A stretch of 64,000 bases of DNA from Obrimoposthia wandeli (GCA_977020255.1 CDROCS010002676.1:496001-560000), one strand, 5' to 3'; counted from the first letter of the stretch, positions 6,158-24,097 are shown. A program made the numbers and translations. The notes: generated by a model from the sequence alone, not told the origin.

Positions 6158-7233
6158 GTCTGTCGCTCCGCCGCCGTGAAATGAATTCGATATTGGCTGA
6201 TCTGCAATTCCAGCAATTAATATAGGCTCAAAATTAGGAGCGCTCACCAGAGTTTTTTCCGCTGACTCAGTCCTTCGTCTCGGCTAAAATTGCTCTTTTC
6301 TGTGTGTGTCCCCTGGCACGACAATGACTGATAGTTACTGGAGAGGATTTCTGGTAGTTGATTTTTCTTCCAATTCACTGAGTTTGTTTCTCCTTCTATT
6401 ACAATTCACTGAGTCGACTTATATAGTCGATCGTCGATTGGAGGCAATTTCCACCTGGCTCTTGAAAGTCAGTGAAAATAAAATTGGCTAAAATAATATG
6501 CCTACTGTCAATCTTCTTTTCTGCTGACGTGGTTTTTCTTTTAATTAATTTTCTTTTTTGCTTTGCTTATTATTTTCTTTTGCACTTTTGTTTCCTTTAA
6601 AATTAACTTATATACACAACACATCATACACGACCTTCGTGGTCTTCTAACATTTATTCTTATTTTAATTTTAATAATTTTAATTTTGATTTTAAAATTT
6701 ATTAAATTCTAACCTTGCTTTCAAGGATTTTCATTTTACTATAAAATCAATTTATTATTTTAATTTTTTAATTCCTAAACCTAACATATCTCGGGGGTTC
6801 CAAAAAAGTTACGTCCCCGGAACGTATCGATTTTACTCTTACAAGCCTCTGGCTGTTGATTTTAGGTTCATCCCTACAAAATCAGTCATTCAACTCATCA
6901 AACATGCCCAAAAAAAAAATTCCAAAACCCGGTTTTTAGAGGAAATTATAGTGAATAATTTGGACAAGTCTCAATTTATACACTATTACTACGTAAAACT
7001 AAAAATTACACAAGGGAAAGGATCAAGGGGGTGATTGTCAAGGAAGATGACGGTTCAATTAATGTTAATTGTCAGTTGTTCCTGTCATTTAGGAACAGCG
7101 TGACCTGCTCCAGTGGCAGGTCTGGATACGATGGGGTCTGGCCTTCGAACAGGGCCATCTGCTGGTTGAGGTTGAGGTGCGGGTTGGGATGGAAAAGGGT
7201 TGTGTACCGCCCGTGGACCCCGCGATTCTGGAT

Positions 7234-7569
7234 TCATATTTGGCGACCGCGTTGCCATGAGCGGCAGTCACGGCTTGATCGCCATTTCTCTCGGAGGGAG
7301 AGTTTCGCGTCGCGACGGCGCGCAATGCAACCGGGACATTGGCAATGTTCGCCACCAATACAGCTGGTGAGCGAACGAGTGCCCTTGTGGCGACCGCGAC
7401 ATTGGAGTGTCCATTCCGCGAAGGGAGCACGGCACAACGGACATGTGACGTGGCCTTCGGGTCGAGTTCGGGCCCATGTATAGAGACACGCCTCGTGGAA
7501 CTTGTGACGGCAGCCGACAGGGGATGCCGATGCCGTCCAAATTTTCTCCAGGCAGACTGAACACTTCAT
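7234..7569 (-). CDS. RING-H2 finger protein 1 (LTR-element cargo), with C-terminal C-x5-C-x-C-x2-C motif
   Basis: CSVC...CRHKFHEAC...W...CPLCR is a C3H2C3 RING. ATG at 7569; the ORF track starts at an upstream GTG. Confidence 0.85.
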   Translation of the reverse strand: MKCSVCLEKIWTASASPVGCRHKFHEACLYTWARTRPEGHVTCPLCRAPFAEWTLQCRGRHKGTRSLTSCIGGEHCQCPGCIARRRDAKLSLREKWRSSRDCRSWQRGRQI

Positions 7570-7919
7570 CTGCACAAGATAATGATTTTTTTCAACTTGG
7601 GGTTCGACTGTTTTCGTCGTTAGTTTATGAAGTTAAAATTTTAGTTTCAAAACGAAACCTTAGTTTTTAATCCTACCGAGTTTTGTTCCGATTTTAGGCA
7701 TGTTTACACATTCATACTAGGCATAAAAAATTGTCTTTTAGAATTTCAGTATAATAATTACAATTTCAATTAAACAACATACATAAAAATGGTAATGGTC
7801 ATTTTACAGTTTCACAAGATTATACAATTATGATTACAATTATGGTAGTTAATTTATCGCGGTATGCGATACACAGGGTAGTTCATGATGTCACGTTCAA
7901 GTCAGAAAGTTACCTTCGA

Positions 7920-8225
7920 TTATTGCTGGGAGTTGGGCTGGCCTGTGCGTCGCTCCTCCACGCAGAACGAGCACCAGCAATCGCAGATAGTTTTCCAGCA
8001 GTGTACTATGGGTACCACTGCTTGGAGGCTGTCCTGGATGTACAAGTAGTGCACTGAGAAGGTCGCTCTGCACATCGGGCAGGTTGGGTAGTCGAGGGGA
8101 TTGTTGCTGTTGGCGATGGGAATCCACGTCTCGAGGCATTCGATGTGGAATAGGTGGTCGCAGTTGTTGGGCTTGGTGTAGAGGTCCACGATGCTCTCGT
8201 AGCAGATGGAACATTCTCCAGACAT
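7920..8225 (-). CDS. RING-H2 finger protein 2 (cargo), with C-terminal C-x6-C-x-C-x2-C motif
   Basis: CSIC...CDHLFHIEC...W...CPMCR, then CWKTICDCWCSFC. Confidence 0.88.
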   Translation of the reverse strand: MSGECSICYESIVDLYTKPNNCDHLFHIECLETWIPIANSNNPLDYPTCPMCRATFSVHYLYIQDSLQAVVPIVHCWKTICDCWCSFCVEERRTGQPNSQQ

Positions 8226-8285
8226 TACTGTGAGAGGGTTGATGTTGAATTTGGGCTCGATTGAGGACTGGTGATTGTGTGATGT

Positions 8286-8585
8286 TTACACAAAAGAGGT
8301 CGGATTTTGTCGTTCTGACAAACAGTAGTAACACCAACACTCTCCGAAATTCTTCCAACAGAATACCACCTGTACATATACATCCTCTTGGTTGGGTTCT
8401 ATCATGATGAACCTTGCGAATTGTCTTCTGCATACAGGGCAACAAGGGTATGTTGGATGTCCGAACTGTCCATAAGTTCTGATCCATGTTGATAAACATT
8501 CCTCGTGGTGTAAATGGTTGCAGGTTTCGGGTCTTGTTCTTCGTTCGGTTAGATCTTCCAAACATATTGGGCATTCTTCGGACAT
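8286..8585 (-). CDS. RING-H2 finger protein 3 (cargo), with C-terminal C-x6-C-x-C-x2-C motif
   Basis: CPIC...CNHLHHEEC...W...CPVCR, then CWKNFGECWCYYC. Confidence 0.88.
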   Translation of the reverse strand: MSEECPICLEDLTERRTRPETCNHLHHEECLSTWIRTYGQFGHPTYPCCPVCRRQFARFIMIEPNQEDVYVQVVFCWKNFGECWCYYCLSERQNPTSFV

Positions 8586-8708
8586 TCTAAATACATGATG
8601 ATGATTAATTTCTACATGAGTTTTATATATTTCTACTATTTGTACAATCGCTTCTAGGTATTTCTACATATTTCACACACTAATTTATCTACAACCTCCT
8701 CTGACTTA

Positions 8709-9707
8709 TCATATCTTGATGGGAGGCGGAGGTAAGGGTCGCAATTCCACTTCCTCCATGGTGGGTGTGTTACAGCATCGCAGTCCTTCGCATTTTCGTC
8801 GTATTTTTGGGCATATTTGACTGCCTTTCACGCACACGACTGTCAATAGGACCACTGCTGTTGACACTACGGCCATTCCAATTAGAGCGTTGACCGCTGT
8901 TACTCTGCTATCAGATGATTGATAATCATACTTCATTTTGTTGTTTGTCGGTTCGAATGACATTTCCATTGGTCTTGATCGGTTTCCATGTATTAGGTCC
9001 GATTTTCTAAAAATTCGCGGATTTGGATATTTTGTTTCTGGTGGAACAGGTATTATTATTTTAGATTGGAAATTATGTTTGGGATCTAGTGGGATCGTTC
9101 CCCTCACTCTTGTCCTCTTAATAATTGTACTTTGGTTTCTGGAATTGAGCTCTTTTTCTTTCGCTTCTGTCTTTGTTCTGATCACTTTTGGCTTTTTGGA
9201 ATGGCGTTTACTTTCGTTTACCTTTGCCTTCTTTTTGACTAGGATTGGTTTTTTGGGAATGATTTTCCTGGGTTTGATACTTATACCGGATCTACGAAAT
9301 CGACGGTTCTGGTATCTTAGAGTTATGTAGAATATTTCACCTGTTATTACCATGATTATGGTCGAGGTCTCTGTAGCATTGCTGGGAATTCGGTTACATA
9401 GACATTCTGTATCAAAATGTGGTACTAACATTTGGTTTTGGATTTCGAATCTGATTCCGCCATCTGGATTGGGACACAACACTGTTACTCTGTCGGTTTC
9501 TAGCAATCTGAAAAATATTCTAACATAATTCCATACGGTTTTACGTCGTCTACCTGTGATCATAATCCTGTCGACAATTTTCCAGATGCGCTCATCTCTA
9601 GGCAATATTAATGACTTTGTTCGGATACTTTGGATAATCCGCTTCCTCTTTGATATCGTTATCCGTAGGTATAACACTCTTTCATGTGGATTTCTTTGAA
9701 CCAGGAA
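8709..9707 (-). CDS. Putative type-I membrane protein at the end of the Pol frame (joined to 9659-10408 by a 1-nt shift)
   Basis: Preceded by signal-peptide-like LLAIGLLSCLMPITGA at the end of ORF 9659-10408. Contains RRFRR (furin-like), hydrophobic VNALIGMAVVSTAVVLLTVVCV, and a short Cys-rich tail ending RPLPPPP. Confidence 0.6.
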   Translation of the reverse strand, partial: FLVQRNPHERVLYLRITISKRKRIIQSIRTKSLILPRDERIWKIVDRIMITGRRRKTVWNYVRIFFRLLETDRVTVLCPNPDGGIRFEIQNQMLVPHFDTECLCNRIPSNATETSTIIMVITGEIFYITLRYQNRRFRRSGISIKPRKIIPKKPILVKKKAKVNESKRHSKKPKVIRTKTEAKEKELNSRNQSTIIKRTRVRGTIPLDPKHNFQSKIIIPVPPETKYPNPRIFRKSDLIHGNRSRPMEMSFEPTNNKMKYDYQSSDSRVTAVNALIGMAVVSTAVVLLTVVCVKGSQICPKIRRKCEGLRCCNTPTMEEVELRPLPPPPIKI

Positions 9708-10408
9708 CTATTTCCGTGGTTAGAGCCTATCTCTTGTGCTCCCGTTATCGGCATTAGACAACTTAACAAGCCTATCGCTAGCAATCTTTGGTATTGAAAG
9801 CTGGGCACTGTTGTTGTAGCTTCATTTGTTTCTCGTTGTTGCTTCCTCTTTTCGGTGTACTTCTCTATTTCTCGAACGAGTAACGGTTTGAATTCCGTAT
9901 CTGGTCTATTCTGTTTGATGTAGACCATCGCTTCTTCTGGTGTATGACCATGGTACTCTACCAACAAGGATACACCTATGGTAGGCGCTAACATCGTACC
10001 TTTTTTCTGATATATCAGAACGCCGTTTCCTTCTGTGACTTCGGCTTGGATGGTTTGAGTCAATTTCATCAGATGTTGTTGTGAATCATTTATTTCTCGA
10101 TTGGAAGCATGTATGTATCGAGTGGTGTCGTCTTCAGTATTTTGACACAGACTGATTATCTCGTTTCCGACTTCAACAATATTAATTACTCGGTTGATAC
10201 TGTGGAACTTTAATCCAGCAGCATCTATATCTCCTGGATAACATAAAAATACTTTTGGCATTATCTGAGTAATTTTGTCGACTCCGGCTAAGAATAAACC
10301 GGTCAACGATAATGCTTGGAGGAAATTCTTTTCCTTTGGATCCTCAGGAATGTCGTCCATCCGTCTTTGTTCTTGCAACATAAGTTGGTAATTTGACAAC
10401 TGTCCCAA
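9659..10408 (-). CDS. End of DSP domain 1, plus a catalytically dead dual-specificity-phosphatase-like domain 2, plus a signal-like segment
   Basis: Starts GQLSNY, completing PNLNF(L)GQL. Then QIMPKVFLC...INRVINI...GVLIYQKKGTMLAPTIGVSLLVEYHGHTPEEAMVYIKQNRP follows the DSP fold, but HCxxGxxR is replaced by YQKKGTML. Confidence 0.75.
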   Translation of the reverse strand: MGQLSNYQLMLQEQRRMDDIPEDPKEKNFLQALSLTGLFLAGVDKITQIMPKVFLCYPGDIDAAGLKFHSINRVINIVEVGNEIISLCQNTEDDTTRYIHASNREINDSQQHLMKLTQTIQAEVTEGNGVLIYQKKGTMLAPTIGVSLLVEYHGHTPEEAMVYIKQNRPDTEFKPLLVREIEKYTEKRKQQRETNEATTTVPSFQYQRLLAIGLLSCLMPITGAQEIGSNHGNSSWFKEIHMKECYTYG

Positions 10409-13400
10409 AAATTAAGATTTGGGTTTGCAATACTTCTTCTCTCCTGTAGGTATTTCAGTGCTTCTAGTACCTGCATTCGTATAGTCTTTATTAGATACGC
10501 TAATACTAGGGTTGCTGATCGAGAAATTCCTTTCTGACAATGTACCAACACTTTTCCTTGGTTTCGGAGTTCTCTGTGAAGTATTTCGTTTGTTTCTACG
10601 AACCATTCGAGAAGATTAGCGTCCATTGAGTCTTTTACTCTTAATGTCATGGCTCTGATTGTCTGGTATTGTGATTTGTGATTCATTGTAACATTGATCA
10701 CGTATGTTATCCCTTGTTCCAACAGTTTCTTTTCATCTGTTGCATCTTTCACATTTCCGAGGTATAACTTATCTGGAATGATCTCACTCATTGGTGGCAA
10801 TAATTCTGACTCTTCAAGTTTTAGTCTTTCTAATCTCTTCTCTATCTGTTCGTCGATGTTGGATAGTTTCGCCAATTTCTTTCCTCTCAGCATTCGTATT
10901 GCTGGAGAGATATTCATCTTTGTCTCTGATGTCTGTTTCTTTGTTGAGTCTTCTTCCGACTCGGTCTCTTCTGCAGATTTAATTCGTCTTTCTTGTATAT
11001 TCTGTTTCACGAATTCTATGTTTTGTCTTTTTCTGCTCTCTTTAGCGAATTCAACCTCCATGGTTTTTTCGAATCGCTCTATCATGTTATCTTCAGATTC
11101 TGTTGATTCTGTATCGTTACTTTCCGGTTCGCTGTCTTGACCAGACTCGCTCGAAGGGTATTCTGGTATGTCTGTCTGAACTGAAATTAATGAAGGGGTT
11201 AGAATAATTGGATTGACTGGTCCTGCGTATTTGTGAATCGGATACGGTATTACGCTATCTTTAAGTATCTCAACTTGGAACTGTGCTCCATAGCACATGA
11301 CAATTGTTTCCAATTTACCCATGATGGATAATCCATCGAAATAGGTAACATTCAGCTTAGATATCGGTGTTTTCGCATAATTAATTAAATTGACTCGTAT
11401 CTCGGTTGATGACGGCCATCGATTTTTTAGTAAAATTATAATTTCGTCGTTTATCGATGTAATTACACTTGGCGCGGATGATACTATTTCAGCATGATAT
11501 TTTGGCTGGATTGAGTTTGTCACTTGTTCTCGGATAATATTGATTCGTTGTGGTTTATTTTTAGCTTCCCACTTCCGGTATCCGCTGTCAATGCGTAACT
11601 CTGCCGTTGCTTTGATGATTTTATTGTTGGTCACTTCCGGTTGGGTTGGCGAATGAAATCCTTCTATTACGCTCAACCTTACAGATACTTCCGTTTGATC
11701 TGTGTCTAACCGGTGAGATTCTGGTATACAACATACAATTGTCTTTCCGTCAAAGTATTTGGTGTCCATCTGACAAATTATCTTTTCGGTGTCTGCGTCG
11801 ATTAAATGAACTCTCATAATATCTCTTTTCCCATGTGAATTACGTAATACCATTATTACATCATGGTATTCTTGTTTGAGTCTTTTTGGTGTACCATGAA
11901 GAATGTGACCACCGGCCGGTTCCTTTTCTTCCTGACTGGCTAGACCTGTTTCAGTACTGTCATAATTCTGCCATGCAACTATGTTTGGTGTCAATGTGAT
12001 TTCGATTAACACTTTCTTAGTCGTAAACACATTGGAGTTTTGATATAGTGCTGCGACTAATGTATTTCCGTCGTAGTATGACACTCTAAGTTCGCATAGA
12101 AATTCGTTTGTCAGTGCATCTTTCACAATGACTTCTTTCGCCACATCTGTTGGTTGTGTTTTTTCGAAAACAACTATTATCTCTTCGTCTTCTTCTAATA
12201 TCTCTTGTGGTGCGATGTGTCGAATTACTTCTTTTTCCTCTTGGTGCTTCATTCTGAGCATACCAATTCTCGCTGGTTTTTTCTCGCTACCACTCGTCAT
12301 CATGTTTATGTAGTTCCGATCACTTACCATTCGTGTAAGCTTAATGGTATTGGTATTCGGCTTCGATTTCTGTGATCTTAACTCATATCGTGACGCGTTA
12401 TCTTTATTTGGTACTAATTTGCATCGATTTGCATGTACAATCATCGGTTCCTTGTTCCGATTTTCCTCGTTGATTACTTTCAAGTTCGTTGAGGTTGTCT
12501 GTATCACCTTGTATGGTCCTTTGTATGGTCTATGAAGTTTAAACGATAGACCTGGTTCGATGACTGGATAAAATATCATCACTTGATCTCCGACTCTAAA
12601 TTCATGTGGTTTTGCTTTTTTGTCGTATTGTTCCTTGTAACCTTCTTGATTGAATTTCAACTTCAATCCGGCTTTGGTCCAAGCATCCTGCAATCTTTCC
12701 TTCATGACGACAATGTATTGTTCAGTTTCTAGATACTGAGATGTTGGCTCGGTCCACTCCAGATCCATCGGCATATTGTTCTGTCTGAGATACATCAGAT
12801 AGAATGGTGTGTGACCCGTCGCCTCTCGAACTGAATTCCTGTAAGCATATAAACATGAAGGTAAATATTTATCCCAATCCTCTTGCTTGTCTGAGCAATA
12901 GGATTGTACCATCATACATAAAGTTTTATTAAACCTTTCTACTAGACCATCTGTTTGTGGGTGATATGGTGAAGTTTGTAACTTCATGATTCCGAATATC
13001 TTCGATACTGCTTTTATTACTTCTCCAGTGAAGTTCTTACCTTGATCCGTTAACAACTTTCTAGGCACTCCGTATCGAAATATTATCTCTTCCACTAAGA
13101 TTTGCGCTATTGTTTCAGCTTTCTGGTTCTGCATGGGATATGCTTCTACCCATCTCGTCATGTAGTCCGTAAATACTATGACGTACTTGTTTCCTTTACT
13201 TGATTCTCTCAATGGTCCCAATATATCCATTGCTGTGAATTCCATTGGTGCCAAAGGAACTGGCATTGGTTTCAGTGGAACTTTAGTACGGGTTCCAGTA
13301 TCTTTTCTGGTTAAACATACTTTACATTGTTTACACCATTGTTTTATGTCGTCTTCCATGCCATCCCAATGGTACTTCTCTTTGATTCTGGCTATTGTCT

Positions 13401-13515
13401 TTCGCCCTGACAGATGTCCTCCTAGTGTTCCATCGTGATACTGGATCATCACTGCTGTTTTCAATGACTTTGGAATTACTACTATTATCTTTCCGACATT
13501 ATTGACAATATACAA
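10303..13515 (-). CDS. Pol part: integrase (HHCC, DDE, GPY/F), three IPT/TIG-like repeats, acidic linker, active dual-specificity phosphatase
   Basis: H-x5-GH...CKQC, MDILGPL, TDQGKNF, GLVERFN, YKGPYKV. DSP: EIIPDKLYLGN...VHCQKGISRSAT. In frame with 13537-16539 across a single TAA. Confidence 0.93.
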   Translation of the reverse strand: MYIVNNVGKIIVVIPKSLKTAVMIQYHDGTLGGHLSGRKTIARIKEKYHWDGMEDDIKQWCKQCKVCLTRKDTGTRTKVPLKPMPVPLAPMEFTAMDILGPLRESSKGNKYVIVFTDYMTRWVEAYPMQNQKAETIAQILVEEIIFRYGVPRKLLTDQGKNFTGEVIKAVSKIFGIMKLQTSPYHPQTDGLVERFNKTLCMMVQSYCSDKQEDWDKYLPSCLYAYRNSVREATGHTPFYLMYLRQNNMPMDLEWTEPTSQYLETEQYIVVMKERLQDAWTKAGLKLKFNQEGYKEQYDKKAKPHEFRVGDQVMIFYPVIEPGLSFKLHRPYKGPYKVIQTTSTNLKVINEENRNKEPMIVHANRCKLVPNKDNASRYELRSQKSKPNTNTIKLTRMVSDRNYINMMTSGSEKKPARIGMLRMKHQEEKEVIRHIAPQEILEEDEEIIVVFEKTQPTDVAKEVIVKDALTNEFLCELRVSYYDGNTLVAALYQNSNVFTTKKVLIEITLTPNIVAWQNYDSTETGLASQEEKEPAGGHILHGTPKRLKQEYHDVIMVLRNSHGKRDIMRVHLIDADTEKIICQMDTKYFDGKTIVCCIPESHRLDTDQTEVSVRLSVIEGFHSPTQPEVTNNKIIKATAELRIDSGYRKWEAKNKPQRINIIREQVTNSIQPKYHAEIVSSAPSVITSINDEIIILLKNRWPSSTEIRVNLINYAKTPISKLNVTYFDGLSIMGKLETIVMCYGAQFQVEILKDSVIPYPIHKYAGPVNPIILTPSLISVQTDIPEYPSSESGQDSEPESNDTESTESEDNMIERFEKTMEVEFAKESRKRQNIEFVKQNIQERRIKSAEETESEEDSTKKQTSETKMNISPAIRMLRGKKLAKLSNIDEQIEKRLERLKLEESELLPPMSEIIPDKLYLGNVKDATDEKKLLEQGITYVINVTMNHKSQYQTIRAMTLRVKDSMDANLLEWFVETNEILHRELRNQGKVLVHCQKGISRSATLVLAYLIKTIRMQVLEALKYLQERRSIANPNLNFWDSCQITNLCCKNKDGWTTFLRIQRKRISSKHYR

Positions 13516-13536
13516 GATTCCTTCTTTTATCGAGTA

Positions 13537-16500
13537 TTATTTCGTCATTTCATCGTTTAGATCTCCTTTCACCAACAATTCTTTGATTAGACTCAATTCT
13601 TCATCTTCTTTCTGTTCTTTGATGATCTCTTTGTCTATTTTACCCGTCTTCAGCAAAATCGTCAGTAGATTTGCTTCTCCTTTTTGGTCATTGGTTTCAT
13701 CTTCTTCTGGAATTATGTTTCCTTTCTCGTCTACATTTGTCAATCTCGACAAACAATCTGCGTTGCCGTTCGACTTTCCGGTTCTATAACGGATTTCTAG
13801 ATCGAATTCGGCCAATTTTAGAAACCATCTGTTTAATCTACTCATATCATCTCTATGTTTATATAAGAACTGTAGTGGTTTGGGATCTGTATATAGGAAT
13901 ACTTTTTGTCCTAGCAAGTAGTGTCTGTACTGTCTACATGAATACACTATGGCTAGACATTCCTTTTCGATAACAGAGTATCCTCTTTCAGCTCTGTTTA
14001 ATCCTCTACTCGCATACGCGATGACGTGTTCTCTTCCTTCGTCATCCTCTTGTCCCAATACTGCTCCTACAGCATAGTTACTTGCATCTGTCATGAGTAT
14101 GAATTGTCGGTTTATATCTGGAAACGCTAATATTGGTGCGTTTATCAGCCTTTCTTTTAAATGCTCGAAAGCTTGTTGTGCTTCTTCTCCCCATATGAAC
14201 TTCTCATCTTTCCTCGTCAACTTTCTCAATGGTGTTGCTATATCTGAAAAATGTTCAACGAATCGTCTATAATAATTCGCAAGACCTAAAAAACTCTGTA
14301 TTTCCTTAACAGTCTTTGGCGCTAAATGCGCTTTTACTTTCTCGATCTTCGCTGGATCAGGTCGAATGCCTTCTTTCGATACTATATGTCCTAAAAATGT
14401 TACTCGCTCTTTAGCCCATTCACATTTTGTAGGTTTAACTTTTAATTTAGCGTTTTCCAGTCTTTTAAATACAACTTCAAGATTTTTTAAATGTTCTTCG
14501 AACGTTTTCGAAAATATTATTATGTCATCGATATAAACCATCGTGTTTGCACACGATGCGAGCACAAAATTCATGCAACGCTGAAATGTTGCTGGAGCTT
14601 CTGTCAGTCCGAATGGCATCTTTTCGCATTCGTATAGGCCATCTCCGCAGGAAAAGGTTGTTTTGTGTTTATCCTCTTCCTCTATCTCGATTTGCCAGTA
14701 TCCACTCTGCAAATCCAATGTCGTAAAATAATCTGAATTACCCAATTTATCGAGCATCTCTTCGATTCTAGGTAATGGATACACATCTTTTCTTGTGATC
14801 TTGTTCAGTTCTCTGAAATCTATACAGAATCTCATTTTCCCATCCTTCTTTTTTACCAACACCACAGGTGCTGAGAATGGCGAAAAACTCGGTCTAATTA
14901 CTCCTGTTTTAGACATATCTTCGATCTGACTTTTTACTTCATCTTGTAACTGTAATGGTACTCGATATGGTCTTCTTCTGACTACTTTGTCTTCTGTCAG
15001 TGGTATTGTATGTTTTATGACAGGTGTTTCTCCTATGTCATATGGATTTTTTGCAATTACTTTCGGAAATTTATGTATTAGATCAAGTAATTGTTTCTTT
15101 TCTCTAGTTGTCAGTCTTTCTGATTGGATTACTATTTCTTCGTAATCATTCGTATCTTTATCGAGTTTCATAGCGCATACAGTGGAATTCTCCATCTGTG
15201 CTATCTTTCCCAACCTCATTCCTCTGTATAATAGAATGTCATTGTTGGTTGTATTCATCAGTCTAACTGGTATTTTGTGGTTTTCGATCAGGCATACTGT
15301 ACTCACAACTGGTAATTCGTATTTCTCTATGAAATCTCGTGATGGTTCGAACACAACTGGTCCTTTATCTTCTGTTAATGTGTGACCTTGAATGAGAAAT
15401 TGTGATCTTTTACCGATTTTTATAGGATTCTCTATAATTACATCAATTTGGTTTATTTGTCTGTTTGATGTACTATCCTTTAATCTTGGATCTTGTAAAT
15501 CAATACTTATCCCTTTAAGTTGTGATAGTACATCCATTCCTAAAATTGTAGGTTCAGGACATTCTTTCATGATTCTAACTGGTATAGTGATCGTATTACG
15601 TCCAATTATAAATGTACATGGTAATATTCCCGTCACTTTTACAGGGTCTCCATTGACCGATACCAAGAATTCATCTGGTTCTGCCATTGTTCGTTTCTGT
15701 TCCTCTGTCAAACAGTCTTCACTTACTATCGAAGCTACAGCACCTGTATCAATTAAGGCTTTTACTCTTAAATTATTTACTCTAATGATAGCTGCTGGTC
15801 GCTGTGCTCCATTTATGTTTCCCATATGGTATATTGTATTTATCGAATTATTACACTCTGTCAGTCCACTTCCTTTGTTTGGATAGTGAAATCTAATGTT
15901 TCTCACTTGTCGATCTATTATTCTTCGACAAATTGGACATGATACTATTTCATTCGCACATCTCCGACATGTTCTTACATGTCCGCATGGTAGAAAGGCA
16001 ACTTCTATTTTGTTGACCATGCAAACTGCGCATTCCGGATCTTCTAGTACGTATTCTAGTTCATTTATGTACTCTTTCTCTTTTGTTTCAATTGTACTGT
16101 CATCTTTATCTCGCAGTAATTCAAAAATCGATCCGTATCCGTTTCGCGTAGTTTTTATTTTTAATTCTACCAATTCTCTGATTCTTTCTGCTTCTTTTGG
16201 ATATAACCTTCTCACGAATGACACTACCGGTGTGTCTTGTTGAGCCAAAATCTCTTTCCGTGTGATTTGGTATTCGATTATACATTCGGTTTTCTGTTCT
16301 TTTTGCTTTATTTTATTTTTAAAAATACAAAATTCGCAAAATTCATGATGTAAAATTTTCTTAGGTAGCTCAAGAGTATATCTGTCGATAATTCGTTCTT
16401 TTTTACACTTGTGGCATTTAATTACGTCTTTACCATCCTTTTTTATAGCAAAAAGTCCCTTTTTTGCCAATTTTTTAAGTCTTGGATCTTCGAAAGTTAC

Positions 16501-16539
16501 TTCTCGATATTGTTCGTCACATTCGTTCACTTCTCGCAT
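13537..16539 (-). CDS. Pol part: degenerate BIR2, IAP-type RING, aspartic protease 2, reverse transcriptase, RNase H
   Basis: LAKKGLF...CHKC-x18-H-x6-C; CAVC...FLPCGH...CRRC...CPICR; LIDTGA; FCIDFRELN, LPRIEE, MPFGL, YIDD; TDASNYAVGAVL, EKECLAI, DCLSR. Confidence 0.95.
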   Translation of the reverse strand: MREVNECDEQYREVTFEDPRLKKLAKKGLFAIKKDGKDVIKCHKCKKERIIDRYTLELPKKILHHEFCEFCIFKNKIKQKEQKTECIIEYQITRKEILAQQDTPVVSFVRRLYPKEAERIRELVELKIKTTRNGYGSIFELLRDKDDSTIETKEKEYINELEYVLEDPECAVCMVNKIEVAFLPCGHVRTCRRCANEIVSCPICRRIIDRQVRNIRFHYPNKGSGLTECNNSINTIYHMGNINGAQRPAAIIRVNNLRVKALIDTGAVASIVSEDCLTEEQKRTMAEPDEFLVSVNGDPVKVTGILPCTFIIGRNTITIPVRIMKECPEPTILGMDVLSQLKGISIDLQDPRLKDSTSNRQINQIDVIIENPIKIGKRSQFLIQGHTLTEDKGPVVFEPSRDFIEKYELPVVSTVCLIENHKIPVRLMNTTNNDILLYRGMRLGKIAQMENSTVCAMKLDKDTNDYEEIVIQSERLTTREKKQLLDLIHKFPKVIAKNPYDIGETPVIKHTIPLTEDKVVRRRPYRVPLQLQDEVKSQIEDMSKTGVIRPSFSPFSAPVVLVKKKDGKMRFCIDFRELNKITRKDVYPLPRIEEMLDKLGNSDYFTTLDLQSGYWQIEIEEEDKHKTTFSCGDGLYECEKMPFGLTEAPATFQRCMNFVLASCANTMVYIDDIIIFSKTFEEHLKNLEVVFKRLENAKLKVKPTKCEWAKERVTFLGHIVSKEGIRPDPAKIEKVKAHLAPKTVKEIQSFLGLANYYRRFVEHFSDIATPLRKLTRKDEKFIWGEEAQQAFEHLKERLINAPILAFPDINRQFILMTDASNYAVGAVLGQEDDEGREHVIAYASRGLNRAERGYSVIEKECLAIVYSCRQYRHYLLGQKVFLYTDPKPLQFLYKHRDDMSRLNRWFLKLAEFDLEIRYRTGKSNGNADCLSRLTNVDEKGNIIPEEDETNDQKGEANLLTILLKTGKIDKEIIKEQKEDEELSLIKELLVKGDLNDEMTK

Positions 16540-16686
16540 AACTTCGAATATGTCTTCAATTCGGCTATTTGTTATTACTCTGCCTACTATTAGAGCTTAT
16601 TCTCCTTCTGGAATCTCGTCACTGTAATCGAAATCGGGTGCTTTTCCCATTTGGATTTCTGGTACGTTTGAAGTTTTCAATTTCAA

Positions 16687-16880
16687 AAGAAATGGGCAAT
16701 TTGGTGCATCTCTTTTATGACGTCTCATTGGGTTTTCATTCTTTTCCCACTCTCTAAACTTTACTCTACATCATACGCATCGTACGACTTCCTCATGACC
16801 ATAACTACTTGTCGCGTTTAACATTTCTAAACCTGATCTTGCCATTTTACGTGCCATTTCTTTTGAATAGTACTGTTCTA
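16687..16880 (-). pseudogene. BIR domain 1, interrupted by an in-frame TGA (16771-16773) and missed by the ORF track
   Basis: Reading through the stop gives MARSGL...EVVRCV*CRVKFREWEKNENPMRRHKRDAPNCPFL, an exact C-x2-C-x16-H-x6-C BIR signature. Confidence 0.9.
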
Positions 16881-17610
16881 ATATATTTCGTCTCTTTTTC
16901 TCGAATCTCATGGGATCCTTTTCTGACAGATTAACATATGTTATTTTCCTCCTCGTCATCTCTTGTGGTCCGAGGTTTACGTTTTTGTAGTGAAGTATCG
17001 ACTTTACTAGCGCTTCCTGTTTTTTGTCTTGGTACGAATTTCCCAAACGGAACGTAGTGTATTTTTCTTTTTCGACTACAGGTCCTCTCAACATTTTTAT
17101 CTCTCTCACTGAACTGTCATTCTTATAACTCTTGTTGTTTGGTAGTATAATTATTCCTTCAAACATTCTTATTACGTCCATCCCAATCATGACTGGACTT
17201 CCGCAATCTGTGAATATTCTAGCATTTAACTGCAATGCTCTTCCATCGATATTCAATGAACATTTCAGTGTTCCTTCTGACACTACATCTGTACCATTTA
17301 CGTTAACAAATGTCTGTTTTCTAGGACATACTTCTCTTAATTCTTTTGATGACAAGATTTCTTTACTCAGTACTGATACTGCAGATCCAGTATCAACTTC
17401 GGCAAGATATTCTCTTCCGTTCAATGTTACTGCTACTTGTGGTGGAGCATTTGGATTCTCATTTGATATCCTAGACTTCAGAATTCTTCTGGAATTATCT
17501 TTTTTGTCTTTTTCCTCTGCTTGTGGAATCTCACTGTAGCTCACTTTAGGCCATCTTATCATTAAGATGCCTCTCTTGAACTTTTCCTTCTCTTCCTTTA
17601 GTTCCTTCAT
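16771..17610 (-). CDS. Aspartic protease 1 (additional retropepsin), linker, and N-half of BIR1
   Basis: VAVTLNGREYLAEVDTGSAVSVLS...VNG...G.L.C...IGMDV, colinear with protease 2. Confidence 0.88.
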   Translation of the reverse strand: MKELKEEKEKFKRGILMIRWPKVSYSEIPQAEEKDKKDNSRRILKSRISNENPNAPPQVAVTLNGREYLAEVDTGSAVSVLSKEILSSKELREVCPRKQTFVNVNGTDVVSEGTLKCSLNIDGRALQLNARIFTDCGSPVMIGMDVIRMFEGIIILPNNKSYKNDSSVREIKMLRGPVVEKEKYTTFRLGNSYQDKKQEALVKSILHYKNVNLGPQEMTRRKITYVNLSEKDPMRFEKKRRNILEQYYSKEMARKMARSGLEMLNATSSYGHEEVVRCV

Positions 17611-17628
17611 TTTTTTTTTTCATTTTTT

Positions 17629-19211
17629 TTATTTTTTTACAACATGTTTGTAATTCTTGTATATTTCTATTGTTCCTGTACGAAATGCGTCTTCGCAATC
17701 TCTCGGAAAAACCTTATGTGCTTTGTACGGTGTGGTAGGTGTGATTTCTGACATAAAACTTCTATGACCACAATAGAATTCGTGATAACTTGAATGGATT
17801 GAACATTCTTTCACTTCTACTTGTGCTTTATCAACATCCTGATACACAAAGTAGTTTTCAACACCTTGAACTTCTAGTTTTGACGGTTGTGACTCTGGAC
17901 AGTCTTCGCTGTCAAGCAGTGAATACTTTTGTCCCATCTTTGGTATGCTACAGTCGTATGCTATCAATCCTGATGCCTGTTGCATTCCCATGAACATTAC
18001 TAACATCATCATCATCATTGTTGTGGACATATTTGGTTGATTGTTTCTTTCTTTCGGACGGTATTGTTTATTTTCTCTTTGACGATTCTCATGACATTGT
18101 TCGTCATCGTCTTCGTTCATTTCCACAATGGTTTTAGCGTAGTCACTTAATTTTGCCCAACCTCCGTTTTCGTCGATTCGTCTCTGTAACACATTCTCGA
18201 TCAAATACATCGCTTCATTTATTCCTTGTTTGACTTCGTGAGGTTGGCTCGTTCGTTCCGTCAATTGGAAACATAGATATGTGATTGCTGTAATTAACTT
18301 TTTATTTGTAGTCTGGTTTCCACATAATCTCGCTAAAACTTCACCGTCGTAAAATCTATCTATTGATGCATGGTATACATGATTCGCAGTCATTCTCTTT
18401 ACTGCAGACATTTGTGATCTAACTGCTTTAGTCAAATTGTCTGTTATATCGGTTGTTTCATCTCTGTACATTTTGAACAACTTTGGCTTCACTTGCCTGA
18501 GAATTCCCGTAAGTATATCTTTACTACTTGGAGTTTCCGAATTCATATCACCTCTGATATCTTCATTCCGCTCCGTACTATACTGCTCTAATGACGCTGC
18601 TAACTGTCCAATGCTTAGATGTCTCTCTTTATCAGTTTGTGGTGCAGTTAGAACATTTCGTAATATACTTCCGTCTTTTCTAGGTCTTCCAGGTCCTCTT
18701 CGAAAATACTGATACTCAGTTTGATTCTCTCCTGGATCATACGGTTCACCATTATACTGTATCTCTTGACTTGGTCCCTCTTCATGGCCAATCTCTTCAC
18801 TTTGTCGCATCATCTGCTCTGCTTGTCTGTCTTTGTATGCAGCATGCCAAATTGGTGAATCTAAATCTACAATTTCGGAGATTTCATCTTCTCCTACTAG
18901 TTGGGTTACGTTTTCGTTTTGTCTCGCTTGGTTAGCTGTATCCATGACTTCATCTTGTCTGATTTGAATTATATCTGGTTCTGGTGGTACTTCGACCACT
19001 GGAGTTGTCAACTCATTTTCTAAATTCATGTCTTGTAATTCAGCTACGTACGGTTCTGGTGTGGATGTCTTGTTCCAAGCTTCAGCTACATCATTATCTC
19101 CGCTTTCGCTTGAACTGTCTAAAATTTCTATAGGCGTTTTTATCATTTCTAACGCAGAGTTTAATATCTCCGTTAATCCTTCATTATCTACTAACTCTTG
19201 ACGTCCTACAG
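17629..19211 (-). CDS. Gag-frame extension: acidic region, AT-hook, Bcl-2-like domain, hydrophobic signal, truncated chuvirus-type glycoprotein N-terminus
   Basis: RRGPGRPRK (AT-hook); LRQ..YR..TDITDNL and IDENGGW (Bcl-2 helices, BH2); MMMMMLVMFMGM..ASG-LIAYDC...SLLD...C...KEC...CG...C...TG. The ORF track's first residues (19212-19287) come from the hAT insertion. Confidence 0.7.
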
Positions 19212-20657
19212 CAGGGTTTCTCAACGGGGGCCCTGGGGCCCCCTGGGGGGCCACACAATTTGCCAGGGGGCCACACGAGCCAAACAAAAATAAAAAATTA
19301 ACACCCCTGTTTTCACTGGGTTAAACACTTCGATGGCTGCACACGTGTGCCATAAATAAATGTTTGACATGGAATAAAAACAGAGTATAGACTTCTAGAT
19401 ACATATGGACGCGACGCGTCAACTTATTTCGTGGGCGTACCAGCCCAATGAGGGCCGACGGTAAAACATCATAATATGCCTTTGCAAAAATATCATCGCG
19501 CTACAAAAGTTTGTGTGGCGGATGTGGCATATGCATAATCATCATTCTGAGTAATCTATGGACTAAAATCAGTAATCGTGTTGTGTCTCAGCGTGTGAAG
19601 AGAAGAGTGTCACACTTCATGTGTACATGCCCAAAATACGCTGCCATTGAAAAATGCTACCTACCTAACTCACAAACGTGCACTTGTGTTTGTTTTGAAT
19701 GAGTCAGTAGTTGATTTCTTTCTTCTTGTTTGTCATTCACCATATCTGAATGTACACACATAGGACCTTGTTTTTCTAATTGTCTTTTTGCTCACGTTAC
19801 CCTTGTAAACAATTTTCATTTCTGATTTTTAGTTGACAATGAGCAGCAAGAAAAAGTGCAGACAGTATAATTGTGATTATTTACGTTTCGGATTCATTGC
19901 AAGCCAAAGTAATTCTCAACTTCCTGAGTGTATTGTCTGTAACACTGTGCTCTCCAATGACTCAATGCGACCATCAAAACTTGAGGCTCATCTCCAAAAG
20001 AAGCATCCTGACATTGCAACAAAACCGCGCACATATTTTACTCAGCTTCGTGATCAGAGGACAACAGCCTCAACCCAATTGCGAAAATTTGTGGTTCCTC
20101 AGAACTTTACTTCTGGCTTAACAGCATCATATAAAATTGCATATTTAATGGCGAAACAGGGTAGAGCGCATACACTGGCAGAGCAGTTGATTAAACCTGC
20201 TATCTTGGAAGCATTTAATGTTGCCATGTATCAAATCCACAGTCAGTGCTCGCATCGATTCCTCTCTCAAATGAAATTTTCAAGAAGGTTTATCCCTTTA
20301 TTGTTAATCTACCGACGTCGGTGTTAGCTGAGAAGGGGTTCTCAGTTGTCCTTCATTCGTTCGCAAAACAGCGGATGAATCTCAAGTTGTGTGACAATGC
20401 AGAAATCCGTTTACGACTTTCTGAAAATGCTCCAGATTTCACTACACTTGTTGGCAAACGCCAAGCGCAAGGGTCACACTAACATTTTTTAAATATAGTT
20501 TTCTCATTGATTATCTTTTTGAATGTTTCCATGACAGAATAGTATAATTGAAAACAATACGTATACGATGTAATCTTTTTGTTCATAGTAGAGGGGGGCC
20601 ACAGCAATTTGCTGCAAACTAAAGGGGGCCGTGGTGAGAAAAGGTTGAGAAACCCTG
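19212..20657 (+). mobile_element. Non-autonomous hAT (Buster/Charlie-type) DNA transposon, internally deleted, 1446 bp
   Basis: TIRs CAGGGTTTCTCAAC / GTTGAGAAACCCTG and 8-bp TSD TCCTACAG (nnnTAnnn) at 19204-19211 and 20658-20665. Contains a BED-finger N-terminus (KKKCRQY..YL.FGF...PECIVC...LSNDSM.PSKL..HL..KH) joined to a Buster-type C-terminus (PTS.L.E.GFS...QAQGSH). Confidence 0.95.
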
Positions 20658-21011
20658 TCCTACAGTGATGACATCAATTTTTTCCTCTAATTCATTTCCT
20701 ATCGGATATCCACACTCGACTGGTACGTCCTCATCATCTAGTGATCTCCCTTTATAATGGAACAACATATTCATTCCATCAATTTCAAGTTTCTCGGCCA
20801 ACTTTTTTCGAATAGTTTTCATTGTCTGATACACGTTAAGTTTTTCATGTATAATCTGTCCGGAAATTAATCGAAGTGAAATATTCATCGTTCCTTCCTG
20901 GTTTGATCTCTGTACGTAGCGACCATAACCTTTCAATAATCCTCGTGGTACTTCTTTGTAACCCAAGTTATCATGACTATGTTTAACCAATTCTGCTCGC
21001 ACTTCTTCCAA
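20658..21011 (-). CDS. Ubiquitin-like domain following Gag; continues in frame into 19211 once the hAT is removed
   Basis: MNISLRLISGQIIHEKLNVYQTMKTIRKKLAEKLEIDGMNMLFHYKGRSLDDE follows the ubiquitin pattern (MQIFVKTLTGK...TI..VK.KI...L.F.GK.L.D). No C-terminal GG. The junction reads KIDVITVG|RQELV. Confidence 0.7.
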
Positions 21012-23086
21012 TCTGTGTGCACTTTAATTGTTTGCAATTTGGCCAAAACTTCTGGAGCTTCACTCGTTTCATCTAACGGTTGATTCAACGTCTCCTTAGC
21101 TTCACTAATTATCTTTTTTACATTTTCCATACTCGTAGCATTTCTTGATGCTTCTACATGATCAGTCATAGGTTGTGCGTTACACGTTTTCTCTATTGGT
21201 GTCTCATATGCTTCTAGTATTTGGTTCATTAAATCATTCATCTCTTCTCTCGAGTGTAGACTTTTTTCTTGTTTCGACAACGTAGATGAATTCGCCATCT
21301 TTGTATGTGGTGAATCTTTAATTATTCCCAACATTCGTTCAAATTTACTATCACTATCTTCAAAATCTATTTCGCGTCGAAGTTCGGTCTCGCGATTCCT
21401 ATCGCTGTCATCGTTTACATAACTAAAATTTCCTTTCGGTTTCGGCGAACTCTCGCGACTATTTGTCTTGTCAACATTATTATTATTATATCTACCGGAA
21501 TTATTATATCTCTCAGCTCCTTGCTGTCCTACGTAATTATTGTATCTCTCAGCTCCTTGCTGTCTGTCTGCATAGTTATTGTATCTACCTGGTGACTGTT
21601 GTCTATCTGTATACTGATTATTCGGTCTCCATGGCTGTGGAGTATATCCACCACCTCTATTCCATGGCGGGGGTGAATTATATCCTCTATAATTATTTCC
21701 AAAATTATTATTACCGAAATTATTATTTCCGAATCTGTTAGTTCCGAACTCTTTACTTCTCGTACAATCTCTCGAATAGTGAGCCATTTGTTTACACGTG
21801 TAACACATTATTCTCCCTCGAATATCTATCTTATTTTGTTCATCTTCGAACTGTACTCGACGACTATTCTGTCTATTATCATATCGTCCTCTAAAATCAT
21901 TTCTTCGGAAATTCGATTCAAAACCGCTTCCTCGATTATTGAATCTTCCGTCACTACTTCCTGTATTATTTCCAAATCGAGAGTCACTTCGCTCTTCTCT
22001 GTTTGCGTTGTAATTCCTATCGTCTCCTCTCCAAGGTTGGCGATTTCCTGAATTTTCTATGTTAAATCTATTCCTGGAATCATCTCTATTTCTATTCCAC
22101 GAATCATTACTATTTCTACCTCTTGAATCATCTCGATTCCTGTTCCAAGACTCACTATTATTTCTACCTCTGGAATCATCTCGATTCCTACTTCGGAAAT
22201 TATCTCTGTTTCCGTTACTGGATTCATCTACTTTTTCAAACTTATTTTGTCCATAATTTCGATTCTGAAAATTACTCGGTTCTGTTTTATTCACGAAGAC
22301 CTTTGTCTTATCGTCGTCACCTGCAGTCATTGCGTAAATTGCCAATGCTGCGTTATTTTTTATATTTTTCTCAATCTCTCTCGCCTTTCGCACGGCGTTA
22401 TCAAAATCATTTGTATCCGATACTGCCAATAATACTTTAATATCTTTTTTCAGTCCTCCTCTAAATATATCCAACAAAACCTCTGCCATTTCATTTTGGT
22501 TCCGGTCATTTTCCGCTACTTGTGCTTCTTGAGCTACAGGAATACCGTCCTGATTTCTCATTATTCTTCTTGGGTACGCTCTTGCAGCCAAGGTTCTCAA
22601 AACATACGCGTATTCATTCACGCCTTCATCATGTTTCTGCTTCCGTTCTCTCATGAGTCGCTTATTTACTTTGGCTAAGTCTCCTAATACCAATTTTCCA
22701 ATAAAAGCATTTTCCAACGTTGGCCAGTCTAAACGTTCTGCTTCTGTCAAATGTTTATACACTTCAAGTGCTAATCCGGTTAAGTGTGCCTGTACTCGGA
22801 CACATTTTTCTTTATCGTTCCATCCTTGAACATCTGCACAACTCGAATATTCTGCGAGGAAGTCACAAATACTTTCCTCATCTCCTTTAAACTTTGTGAT
22901 CTGCAATGATCCTGAAAAGTTGGGTCTCAACGTCGCATTTAGGGCTTGTGCCAACTGTTCGGCATTCATGTCACCTACATTATTTCCTGCATTATTATCT
23001 GCTTGAGCTCCTGGGTGAGCCATATTTTCAACTATATCTTCTTCAACTATTTCTTCAATATTATTCGCTTGAACTTCTTCAATCAC
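20933..23086 (-). CDS. Gag (capsid, N/R/G/Y-rich low-complexity region, CCHC knuckle)
   Basis: KFKGDEES..FL..Y...GW...LTGLA..Y...W..L...F, and CYTCKQMAHYSRDC. First in-frame ATG at 23023; the frame is open without an ATG up to ~23410. Confidence 0.9.
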   Translation of the reverse strand: MIEEVQANNIEEIVEEDIVENMAHPGAQADNNAGNNVGDMNAEQLAQALNATLRPNFSGSLQITKFKGDEESICDFLAEYSSCADVQGWNDKEKCVRVQAHLTGLALEVYKHLTEAERLDWPTLENAFIGKLVLGDLAKVNKRLMRERKQKHDEGVNEYAYVLRTLAARAYPRRIMRNQDGIPVAQEAQVAENDRNQNEMAEVLLDIFRGGLKKDIKVLLAVSDTNDFDNAVRKAREIEKNIKNNAALAIYAMTAGDDDKTKVFVNKTEPSNFQNRNYGQNKFEKVDESSNGNRDNFRSRNRDDSRGRNNSESWNRNRDDSRGRNSNDSWNRNRDDSRNRFNIENSGNRQPWRGDDRNYNANREERSDSRFGNNTGSSDGRFNNRGSGFESNFRRNDFRGRYDNRQNSRRVQFEDEQNKIDIRGRIMCYTCKQMAHYSRDCTRSKEFGTNRFGNNNFGNNNFGNNYRGYNSPPPWNRGGGYTPQPWRPNNQYTDRQQSPGRYNNYADRQQGAERYNNYVGQQGAERYNNSGRYNNNNVDKTNSRESSPKPKGNFSYVNDDSDRNRETELRREIDFEDSDSKFERMLGIIKDSPHTKMANSSTLSKQEKSLHSREEMNDLMNQILEAYETPIEKTCNAQPMTDHVEASRNATSMENVKKIISEAKETLNQPLDETSEAPEVLAKLQTIKVHTDWKKCEQNWLNIVMITWVTKKYHEDY

Positions 23087-23519
23087 TACTTGATTGGCAA
23101 TTTCAAATTCTTCTGGGTTTTGAACTTCAATATTATCAATTTCTTCTGGGTTTATTTCACCAATTACTTCAGTCAGATCAAAACTGTCGGTTGAAACTGC
23201 TGATTGATTTACGTCTCTGTCTGATACGTTTTCTTCGACTCTAGTCTGTTCTATTACTTTGTTATCTGTTTGGGGAATCTGTTCAATTCGGTTAACTTTA
23301 TTATTATTTATCTCTTCCTGGGGAATCTGACTTTGTCTTCTAGTATTATACGCGGGTCCTTTTCTATTATCCGTTGTCTTATCAATTATGTATTCGTTTA
23401 CGATATCAATTTACTTATTATTTTATCTTATTTCACAATTCTTATTTTACGATTTTTTATCTCTTTAATTAGTTCGAGGACACGTCTCCCGACTTAACCT
23501 ATTCAATTAATTACTTCGA

Positions 23520-24045
23520 GTATCAATCCACTCGATTCTCAACTTTATCAAATTTACTGAACTCGAGGAACAAATCCACTCGATTTCTCAAAACTTATCA
23601 AATTCTTAACTTCGAGGAACAAATCTACTCGATTTCTCAAAACTTATCAAATTCTTAACTTCGAGGAACAAATCTACTCGATTTCTCAAAAACTTATCAA
23701 ATTCTTAACTTCGAGGAACAAATCTACTCGATTTCTCAACACTTATCAAATTCTCAACTTCGAGGAACAAATCTACTCGATTTCTCAAAACTTATCAAAT
23801 TCTTAACTTCGAGGAACAAATCTACCCGATTTCTCAACTTTATTCAAAACTTATCTCAATTTACTTATATCTTCTTCTGAAACTTATTCTCAATTTGCTT
23901 ATATCTTCTTCTGAAACTTATTCTCAATTGTCTATATTCTTCTGCTGAAACTTATTCTCAATTTATCTGAAACTTATTCTCAATTTATCTGAACTTATTC
24001 TATTTATCTGAAACTTATTCTCAATTTATCTGAAACTTATTCTAT
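23520..24045. repeat. 5' leader tandem arrays: 49-bp unit x~6 (~23530-23830) and ~22-bp unit array (~23860-24045)
   Basis: Units CTCGATTTCTCAAAACTTATCAAATTCTTAACTTCGAGGAACAAATCTA and TCTGAAACTTATTCTCAATTTA. Confidence 0.9.
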
Positions 24046-24070
24046 GTGAATTCGCTGTGTCCGACGAGCT

Positions 24071-24089: not shown

Positions 24090-24097
24090 CTTTAATA

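What the first reader, a model, noticed from the sequence alone, without database searches (positions are those of the whole stretch)
15890..16880. BIR-BIR-RING IAP module inserted inside Pol between two proteases
Seen: BIR1 has an exact C-x2-C-x16-H-x6-C signature hidden by a TGA at 16771. BIR2 is degenerate (C-x2-C-x18-H-x6-C). An IAP-type C3HC4 RING follows. All are in the same frame as PR/RT apart from two in-frame stops (16771, 16597). Known: two BIRs plus a C-terminal RING is the baculovirus IAP architecture. Inference: flanking proteases could release a free IAP from the polyprotein.
Basis: partly seen in the sequence, partly recalled or inferred. Interest (0 to 1): 0.75.

Follow-up and report, generated by a model that had tools for sequence, protein, structure and literature searches.

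The report
Apoptosis-inhibitor cargo in giant flatworm retroelement
A giant flatworm retrotransposon of an already described type carries a cell-death-inhibitor-like module between two proteases in its polyprotein, and the same module is a free-standing gene in two virus-like DNA elements of the same genome, which suggests that unrelated mobile elements trade this gene.

Summary
The module lies in a decayed 21.6-kb copy of a high-copy Burro-like giant gypsy LTR element (gag, ubiquitin-like, Bcl-2-like, env, PR1, IAP, PR2, RT, RH, IN, phosphatases) of a flatworm, probably marine. BIR1 and the RING are clear. The second BIR is a shortened BIR-like finger (C-x2-C-x18-H-x3-C, not H-x6-C), and a UBA-like domain precedes the RING. 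Both stops are private: 0 of 68 other module-bearing copies have them. Module and both proteases are under purifying selection. BIR/RING cargo in Burro elements is published, with function shown for planarian Burro1 (paper not readable here), so the core is known. Not found in what I could read: twin intact proteases around the module; a colinear free-standing homolog (33-39% identical) in two Maverick/Polinton families of the same genome, grouping apart from cellular IAPs; and a BIR1 with type-I-like residues that argue against classical caspase/antagonist binding. Most likely the element's proteases release an IAP-type ubiquitin ligase that keeps the host cell alive; release, expression and target are inferred, not shown.

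The parts
4582..26192 (-). Whole giant gypsy (Burro-like) LTR element, decayed copy, TG..CA ends, 4-bp target duplication
   Evidence: LTRs 1198/1208 identical over their non-tandem parts
24097..26192 (-). 5' LTR
20933..23410 (-). gag with CCHC knuckle
   Evidence: zf-CCHC E=0.005; E=1.3e-5 in another copy
20709..20876 (-). ubiquitin/SUMO-like domain
   Evidence: E=0.003; ubiquitin variants E=0.006
19212..20657 (.). secondary hAT-type DNA transposon insertion, 14-bp terminal inverted repeats, 8-bp target duplication; private to this copy
   Evidence: (absent from 6 of 6 other copies)
18100..18420 (-). Bcl-2-like domain (weak)
   Evidence: PF00452 E=0.12, below cut-off; position matches published Burro order
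17653..18021 (-). N-terminal piece of env (Monjiviricetes-type fusion glycoprotein); about 1.65 kb of env is deleted at 17611-17634 in this copy
   Evidence: E=1e-14; E=3e-94 in another copy
17152..17448 (-). aspartyl protease 1 (DTG at 17394)
   Evidence: (DTG in 30 of 30 copies, pN/pS 0.06)
17086..17100 (-). candidate cleavage motif I-x-M-L-R after PR1 (inferred)
   Evidence: 3 of 3 occurrences lie in interdomain linkers, 0.04 expected in shuffles; motif chosen after looking
15880..17020 (-). IAP module, colinear over its whole length with free Polinton genes
16684..16899 (-). BIR1, zinc ligands intact, type-I-like groove residues; broken by a private stop at 16773-16771
16597..16599 (-). 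second private stop, in the BIR1-BIR2 linker
16336..16512 (-). BIR-like second zinc finger, C-x2-C-x18-H-x3-C, with the BIR N-terminal R-x-x-T-F and L-A-x-x-G motifs
16090..16284 (-). UBA-like helical domain
   Evidence: probability 96% against the pre-RING region of cellular IAPs
15880..16032 (-). IAP-type C3HC4 RING and its tail
15832..15843 (-). candidate cleavage motif I-N-x-I before PR2 (inferred)
   Evidence: 4 of 4 occurrences in linkers, 1.1 expected; post hoc
15517..15813 (-). aspartyl protease 2 (DTG at 15750)
   Evidence: DTG in 30 of 30, pN/pS 0.09
12958..14856 (-). RT, RNase H and integrase; stop at 13539-13537
9659..10767 (-). two dual-specificity phosphatase domains
   Evidence: E=2.7e-31 and 1e-5
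7234..8663 (-). three short RING-finger ORFs
4582..6786 (-). 3' LTR

Best explanation
The module is a standing, selected part of the single giant polyprotein of a Burro-like gypsy element. The polyprotein is made whenever the element is expressed; the element's own aspartyl proteases cut at linker sites after PR1 and before PR2 and free a roughly 420-residue BIR/BIR-like/UBA-like/RING protein. This acts as an IAP-type E3 ubiquitin ligase that, with the Bcl-2-like and phosphatase cargo, suppresses death or stress signalling in the cell that hosts retrotransposition. BIR1 probably recruits targets through a protein surface (type-I mode) rather than the caspase/antagonist peptide groove. The gene belongs to a lineage of IAPs that lives on mobile elements and has moved between this retroelement and Maverick/Polinton elements. 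Shown: anatomy, family-wide presence, private stops, purifying selection, homology to the free Polinton genes. Inferred: expression, cleavage and its sites, E3 activity, targets, direction of transfer. The window copy itself is dead.
For: Open frames up to 5497 aa across the RING-PR2 junction among the 150 best hits, none with a stop in the matched stretch; gag-Ubi-Bcl2-env-PR1 in 6 of 6 other copies, one in a single 2195-aa frame. pN/pS among 30 copies: BIR1 0.22, BIR-like 0.11, UBA-like 0.22, RING 0.15, PR1 0.06, PR2 0.09, RT 0.09; all zinc ligands and both DTG motifs in 30 of 30. Free 333-aa and about 300-aa homologs, 33-39% identical and colinear, ending four residues after the shared RING tail motif, inside 15-16-kb elements with 580-620-bp inverted ends, A32-type ATPase, rve integrase and type B polymerase. 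[quoted passage not shown] Arg at the 319-equivalent and a non-aromatic 323-equivalent mark type I BIRs (PMC6360406, passages); the family has Arg and Asp in 30 of 30. Planarian Burro1 B-IAP is reported to protect stem cells from caspase-mediated death (second-hand, PMC13465017 passages).
Against: No expression or cleavage data. The cleavage motifs were picked after looking, so their shuffle statistics are inflated. The copies counted were best hits, not a random sample, and pairs are not independent. In the PR1-picked set only 10 of 29 copies, and 6 of 12 in the P0178-picked set, have the module fully open. The Burro1 result points to caspase inhibition, which sits uneasily with a groove-less BIR1. 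The N-terminal half of BIR1 is nearly unconstrained between subfamilies (dN/dS 0.84). The tree is a quick tree on 142 columns with long branches, and the search profile was built from the very sequences that group together.
Confidence: 0.62

Rival explanations
1. Classical IAP: BIR1 binds caspase or IAP-antagonist N-terminal peptides in a modified groove and the RING ubiquitinates them, as for baculovirus IAPs and as reported for Burro1.
For: Trp310 and an acidic 314-equivalent are kept (29 and 30 of 30); Lys at 306 also occurs in XIAP BIR2, which binds peptides; the unnamed homolog P0126 keeps Asp314 and Glu319; Burro1 report (second-hand).
Against: Arg319 and Asp323 in 30 of 30 copies; among 440 cellular BIRs position 319 is Glu in 297 and Asp is not among the six commonest residues at 323; the second finger lacks the residues between His and Cys that carry position 323; the Polinton versions lack the acidic 314 instead.
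Confidence: 0.2
2. The module serves the element's own life cycle rather than cell survival: a RING/UBA ligase that degrades host restriction factors or regulates turnover of the polyprotein; the two proteases, tethered by it, may dimerise early and so time processing.
For: The element also carries three more RING ORFs and a ubiquitin-like domain; BIR1's N-terminal half, the partner-binding surface in type I BIRs, is the fastest-changing part (63-71% identity against 89-99% for the other domains in six subfamily copies), as in an arms race; both proteases stay catalytically intact.
Against: dN/dS 0.84 is below 1 and pS is raised there too, so relaxed selection or a recombined tract explains it equally; the co-occurring Bcl-2-like domain points to apoptosis; tethered-dimer activation is an analogy recalled from retroviral work, untested here.
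Confidence: 0.13
3. A passenger: a captured gene that is decaying or tolerated, with no function for the element.
For: This copy has two stops in it; 2 of 29 PR1-picked copies lack it by deletion.
Against: pN/pS 0.10-0.26 over most of the module in two separate samples; the one clean deletion examined is out of frame at a 7-base microhomology, so a later accident; 12 of 14 older copies picked downstream of PR2 still carry the RING.
Confidence: 0.05

Closest known systems
Burro / GYPSM1 giant gypsy LTR retrotransposons of planarians (PMC6431247 section 7, read; Grohme 2018 and Jurka 2007 seen only through it)
   Same: One huge polyprotein (4873-5140 aa there; frames up to 5497 aa here), order gag, ubiquitin/SUMO-like, Bcl-2-like, in-frame env of mononegavirus type, PR, RT, RH, IN; BIR and RING cargo; very high copy number; flatworm host.
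   Different: About 22 kb rather than over 30 kb; no MATH or ankyrin hit in the window ORFs scanned; the text read mentions one PR and does not place the BIR (its figure is not viewable); host COX1 is only 71-73% identical to the nearest named triclads and an independent marine metagenome holds the element, whereas Burro1 is described from Dugesiidae and Geoplanidae.
Burro1 B-IAP (Lee et al., Dev Cell 2026, doi 10.1016/j.devcel.2026.03.001; not held, known only from passages of PMC13465017)
   Same: BIR plus RING region inside a Burro element, anti-apoptotic role proposed.
   Different: Sequence, number of BIRs, flanking proteases, mode of release and origin could not be compared.
IAP genes of Polintons/adintoviruses (PMC8502044, passage)
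   Same: Adintoviruses are reported to carry IAP and Bcl2 homologs; two Polinton families here carry a free IAP, one also a phosphatase 34% identical to the retroelement's first one.
   Different: No link to LTR retroelements in the passage read; its supplementary figures were not examined.
Baculovirus and cellular two-BIR RING IAPs (DIAP1 type)
   Same: BIR, BIR, UBA-like, C-terminal RING order; zinc ligands; RING type.
   Different: Second BIR truncated; BIR1 groove type-I-like; longer RING tail; embedded in a polyprotein; separate branch from 70 cellular IAPs.

Membership tests
Burro-like giant gypsy elements | LTR element with gypsy order PR-RT-RH-IN | tested here: met
Burro-like giant gypsy elements | single polyprotein near 5000 aa with env in frame between gag and pol | tested here: met
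   (in other copies; broken in the window)
Burro-like giant gypsy elements | ubiquitin/SUMO-like, Bcl-2-like, BIR and RING cargo | tested here: met
   Bcl-2 hit is weak (E=0.12)
Burro-like giant gypsy elements | total length over 30 kb | tested here: not met
   21.6 kb in this copy, about 21.8 kb allowing for its insertion and deletion; a size descriptor of the planarian members rather than a lineage test
Burro-like giant gypsy elements | RT groups with Burro1-4 | not testable with these tools
   no named Burro sequence was available; one search found no long relative among 4289 candidates (weak search)
Canonical two-BIR RING IAP (baculovirus/DIAP1 type) | BIR with C-x2-C-x16-H-x6-C | tested here: met
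   BIR1, 30 of 30 copies
Canonical two-BIR RING IAP (baculovirus/DIAP1 type) | second complete BIR | tested here: not met
   H-x3-C finger, no Pfam hit; BIR-derived by profile
Canonical two-BIR RING IAP (baculovirus/DIAP1 type) | type II IBM groove (acidic 314, Glu/Gln 319, Trp/His 323) | tested here: not met
   Glu, Arg, Asp in 30 of 30 against the residues given in PMC6360406; sequence only, no structure
Canonical two-BIR RING IAP (baculovirus/DIAP1 type) | RING at the free C-terminus with E3 activity | not testable with these tools
   internal in the polyprotein; terminal in the Polinton homologs
Maverick/Polinton (for the two elements carrying the free gene) | long terminal inverted repeats, type B polymerase, rve integrase, packaging ATPase | tested here: met
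   inverted ends in 2 of 2 copies of each family; ATPase seen in family B only; polymerase Pfam hit in family A, family B polymerase by likeness of its motifs
Maverick/Polinton (for the two elements carrying the free gene) | major and minor capsid genes | tested here: inconclusive
   ORFs of fitting size and place but no Pfam or PHROG hit; the assignment is from recalled likeness

The most novel reading that the evidence does not exclude
A lineage of IAPs lives only on mobile elements in free-living flatworms and has crossed between an RNA-based enveloped retroelement and DNA-based Polintons (perhaps together with a phosphatase). In the retroelement a duplicated, still active protease pair brackets it as a release cassette. 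Since RING IAPs are reported lost from the flatworms sampled so far, these elements may be the host's only source of a RING IAP, and Burro's anti-apoptotic gene would be of viral rather than direct host origin and older than the freshwater and land planarians.
Probability: 0.35. Interest if true: 0.75.

Novelty: new variant of a known kind. Interest (0 to 1): 0.5.

Why it matters
Burro1 is the reported case of a retrotransposon whose IAP helps host regeneration. A young, abundant relative in a distant, probably marine flatworm, with the IAP bracketed by two selected proteases, makes it testable how such cargo is freed from a 5500-aa polyprotein. The free homologs in Polintons define the natural protein ends and raise the question where the gene came from, given the reported loss of RING IAPs in flatworms (parasitic species sampled). 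It would be a clear instance of gene exchange between retroelements and virus-like DNA elements.

Tried and rejected
Primary Burro papers were not held: Grohme 2018 and Lee 2026, so twin proteases and the Polinton link may already be in them. Paper searches that found no report of either: (listings only, except the papers cited). The protein atlas look-up was not obtained. Word-based protein searches found no long relative and only generic IAP/RING hits. Viral contigs (3 loci) and metagenome contigs (best 80 of 116) gave only generic IAPs; none scored with profiles of the mobile-type-specific parts. No RNA holder listed among sequencing runs; this says nothing on expression. A host RING IAP was not found, but both searches were swamped by mobile copies (150 of 12110 and 74 of 16948 candidates scored); the phosphatase search likewise gave only one repeated family by score (loci not examined). 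P0126 shows no protease remnant before its module. Apparent stops in two PR1-picked copies were alignment artefacts of copies lacking the module. A module-less copy was checked as a possible ancestral or spliced form and rejected: out of frame, microhomology. The second retroelement phosphatase does not match the Polinton one. A complex prediction for PR1 with PR2 was not sent, as a pass would follow from likeness to solved protease dimers. The careful tree did not finish; no test of one clade was run. Earlier scan findings: none.

Full report
Observation. On the minus strand one frame runs from 17619 through a protease, BIR1, a second zinc finger, a RING, a second protease, RT, RNase H, integrase and a phosphatase, broken by stops at 16773-16771, 16599-16597 and 13539-13537. 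Read through with X, Pfam gives BIR E=3.5e-13, IAP-type RING E=2.5e-11 and two aspartyl protease stretches. The first stop lies in the spacer between the first two cysteines, so the BIR1 signature is exact. The second finger has no Pfam hit. Alignment with homologs shows its conserved spacing is C-x2-C-x18-H-x3-C; profile comparison places it with BIRs (92%, controls under 1%) and shows a UBA-like domain before the RING (96%).

Context. The module lies in a 21.6-kb LTR element, 4582-26192, with TG..CA ends, a 4-bp target duplication and LTRs 99.2% identical. Upstream are gag, a ubiquitin-like domain, a weak Bcl-2-like domain and the start of a Monjiviricetes-type env. This copy also has a 1.45-kb hAT-type insertion and a 1.65-kb env deletion; 6 of 6 other copies lack both and show gag-Ubi-Bcl2-env-PR1, one as a single 2195-aa frame. 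Frames across the RING-PR2 junction reach 5497 aa among the 150 best hits. This is the architecture described for planarian Burro elements, including BIR, RING and Bcl-2 cargo and in-frame env (PMC6431247, section 7 read). A 2026 paper reports that the BIR+RING region of Burro1 protects stem cells; I know it only from passages of PMC13465017, the paper itself not being held. The host is a flatworm: a repeated COX1 copy reads correctly under the flatworm/echinoderm code and its best named hits are triclads at 71-73%. Contigs of an independent marine metagenome run cover 29 of 30 bins of 15000-18200 at 90% likeness or more. So the host is probably marine and distant from the families where Burro1 is described; this is inference, and the assembly contains other organisms.

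Family test. Neither stop occurs in 29 best-hit copies (30 loci returned of 40 scored, 4374 candidates), and 23 of 29 have the module open. Of 29 copies picked by PR1 alone, 27 carry the module and none of those has either stop; two lack it by deletion, the one examined being out of frame at a microhomology. Twelve copies picked with a distant homolog all show PR1, module, PR2. Of 14 mostly older copies picked downstream of PR2, 12 keep the RING and 10 BIR1, which lies at the edge of the fetched flank. Fully open modules are 10 of 29 and 6 of 12 in these less biased sets, as expected of ageing copies. Pairwise pN/pS over 30 copies is 0.11-0.26 across the module, 0.06 and 0.09 in the proteases, 0.09 in RT; both DTG motifs and all zinc ligands are present in 30 of 30. 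Between subfamilies (3 against 6 copies) dN/dS is 0.10-0.19 in most domains but 0.84 in the N-terminal half of BIR1 and 0.46 in its core; that cannot be told from relaxed selection or recombination.

Origin. A BIR search of the genome returned, among 30 loci, 28 from two other repeat families. They encode the same module as a free gene of 333 and about 300 aa, 33-39% identical to the window module and colinear from the residues before BIR1 to the RING tail. Their neighbours are an A32-type ATPase, an rve integrase and a type B polymerase between long inverted ends, i.e. Mavericks/Polintons. A profile search of 1.84 billion proteins gave three more single-stretch, full-length homologs among the best 150, all unnamed. 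In a quick tree these six sequences form one side of a branch (SH-aLRT 100) against the first 70 of 96 usable cellular rows; long branches and the way the profile was built weaken this, but shared linkers support it. The retroelement keeps a more complete second finger than either Polinton family, so neither is its direct donor; direction is open. Adintoviruses are known to carry IAP homologs (PMC8502044, passage). RING IAPs are reported lost in flatworms (PMC13159474, passages), but the flatworms named there are parasites, and my searches for a host RING IAP were swamped.

Mechanism. [quoted passage not shown] An internal RING therefore probably needs cutting free. An I-x-M-L-R motif occurs three times and I-N-x-I/M four times in Pol, all in linkers, one after PR1 and one before PR2 (chosen after looking). 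Cuts there would free about 420 residues with a 32-residue tail. BIR1 has Lys, Phe, Trp, Glu, Arg, Asp at the positions equivalent to 306, 307, 310, 314, 319, 323; Arg319 and loss of the aromatic 323 are what make XIAP BIR1 unable to bind IBM peptides (PMC6360406, passages). I therefore favour a released ubiquitin ligase that recruits targets by a protein surface (0.62) over a classical peptide-groove IAP (0.2), a function in the element's own cycle (0.13) or a passenger (0.05). No structure, expression or cleavage data were obtained.

Verdict. Real, family-wide and selected, but IAP cargo in this kind of element is known. The twin proteases, the Polinton homologs, the groove-less BIR and the likely wider host range were not found in the papers I could search; the two primary Burro papers and all figures were out of reach and may contain some of it. 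New variant of a known kind; interest 0.5.

Noticed in passing
L063/L064/L083 (G000:C760) and L067/L068/L081 (G000:C3621): Two abundant Maverick/Polinton families, about 16 and 15 kb, each with a free IAP gene near one end; IAP gene open in 15 of 26 and 4 of 15 copies, pN/pS 0.39-0.48 and 0.57-0.74. Family B has lost the second finger, family A its N-terminal half.
   Followed up: yes
L064:1989-2699: Polinton family A carries a dual-specificity phosphatase next to its IAP, 34% identical to the retroelement's first phosphatase, with an altered catalytic loop; possibly a second shared gene, no tree made.
   Followed up: partly
window 16800-17050: BIR1's N-terminal half is a divergence peak between subfamilies (DNA identity down to 72-76%, dN/dS 0.84).
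   Followed up: partly
window 19212-20657: hAT-type DNA transposon fragment with a BED/Spin-doc zinc finger inserted into the element.
   Followed up: partly
window 7234-8663: Three short RING-finger ORFs in tandem before the 3' LTR; a second copy shows related ORFs (L082).
   Followed up: no
window 10900-12300: About 470 residues between integrase and the first phosphatase with no Pfam hit; looks like three loosely repeated units separated by candidate cleavage motifs.
   Followed up: no
window 6787-6810 and 24075-24096: A tRNA-type primer site follows the 5' LTR after an 8-base gap, but no purine-rich tract precedes the 3' LTR.
   Followed up: no
window 4990-6160 and 24500-25590: LTRs contain 34-bp and 25-bp tandem arrays whose unit number differs between the two LTRs; further arrays lie in the leader (23500-24050).
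   Followed up: no
window 61500-62219: Intronless ubiquitin-conjugating enzyme ORF (Pfam UQ_con E=5e-27), probably a host gene.
   Followed up: no
L099 (G000:C6379): Polinton-type IAP copy with two BIR1 matches 435 bases apart, probably a local duplication.
   Followed up: partly
G000; L079, L080: The assembly holds many bacterial-type COX1 genes, several copies of a flatworm-type COX1 inside large contigs, and a second animal mitochondrion (L080) of another group, so it includes other organisms.
   Followed up: partly
L031, L032: Single BIR genes that look like host survivin and Bruce (labels from recalled likeness, not tested).
   Followed up: no
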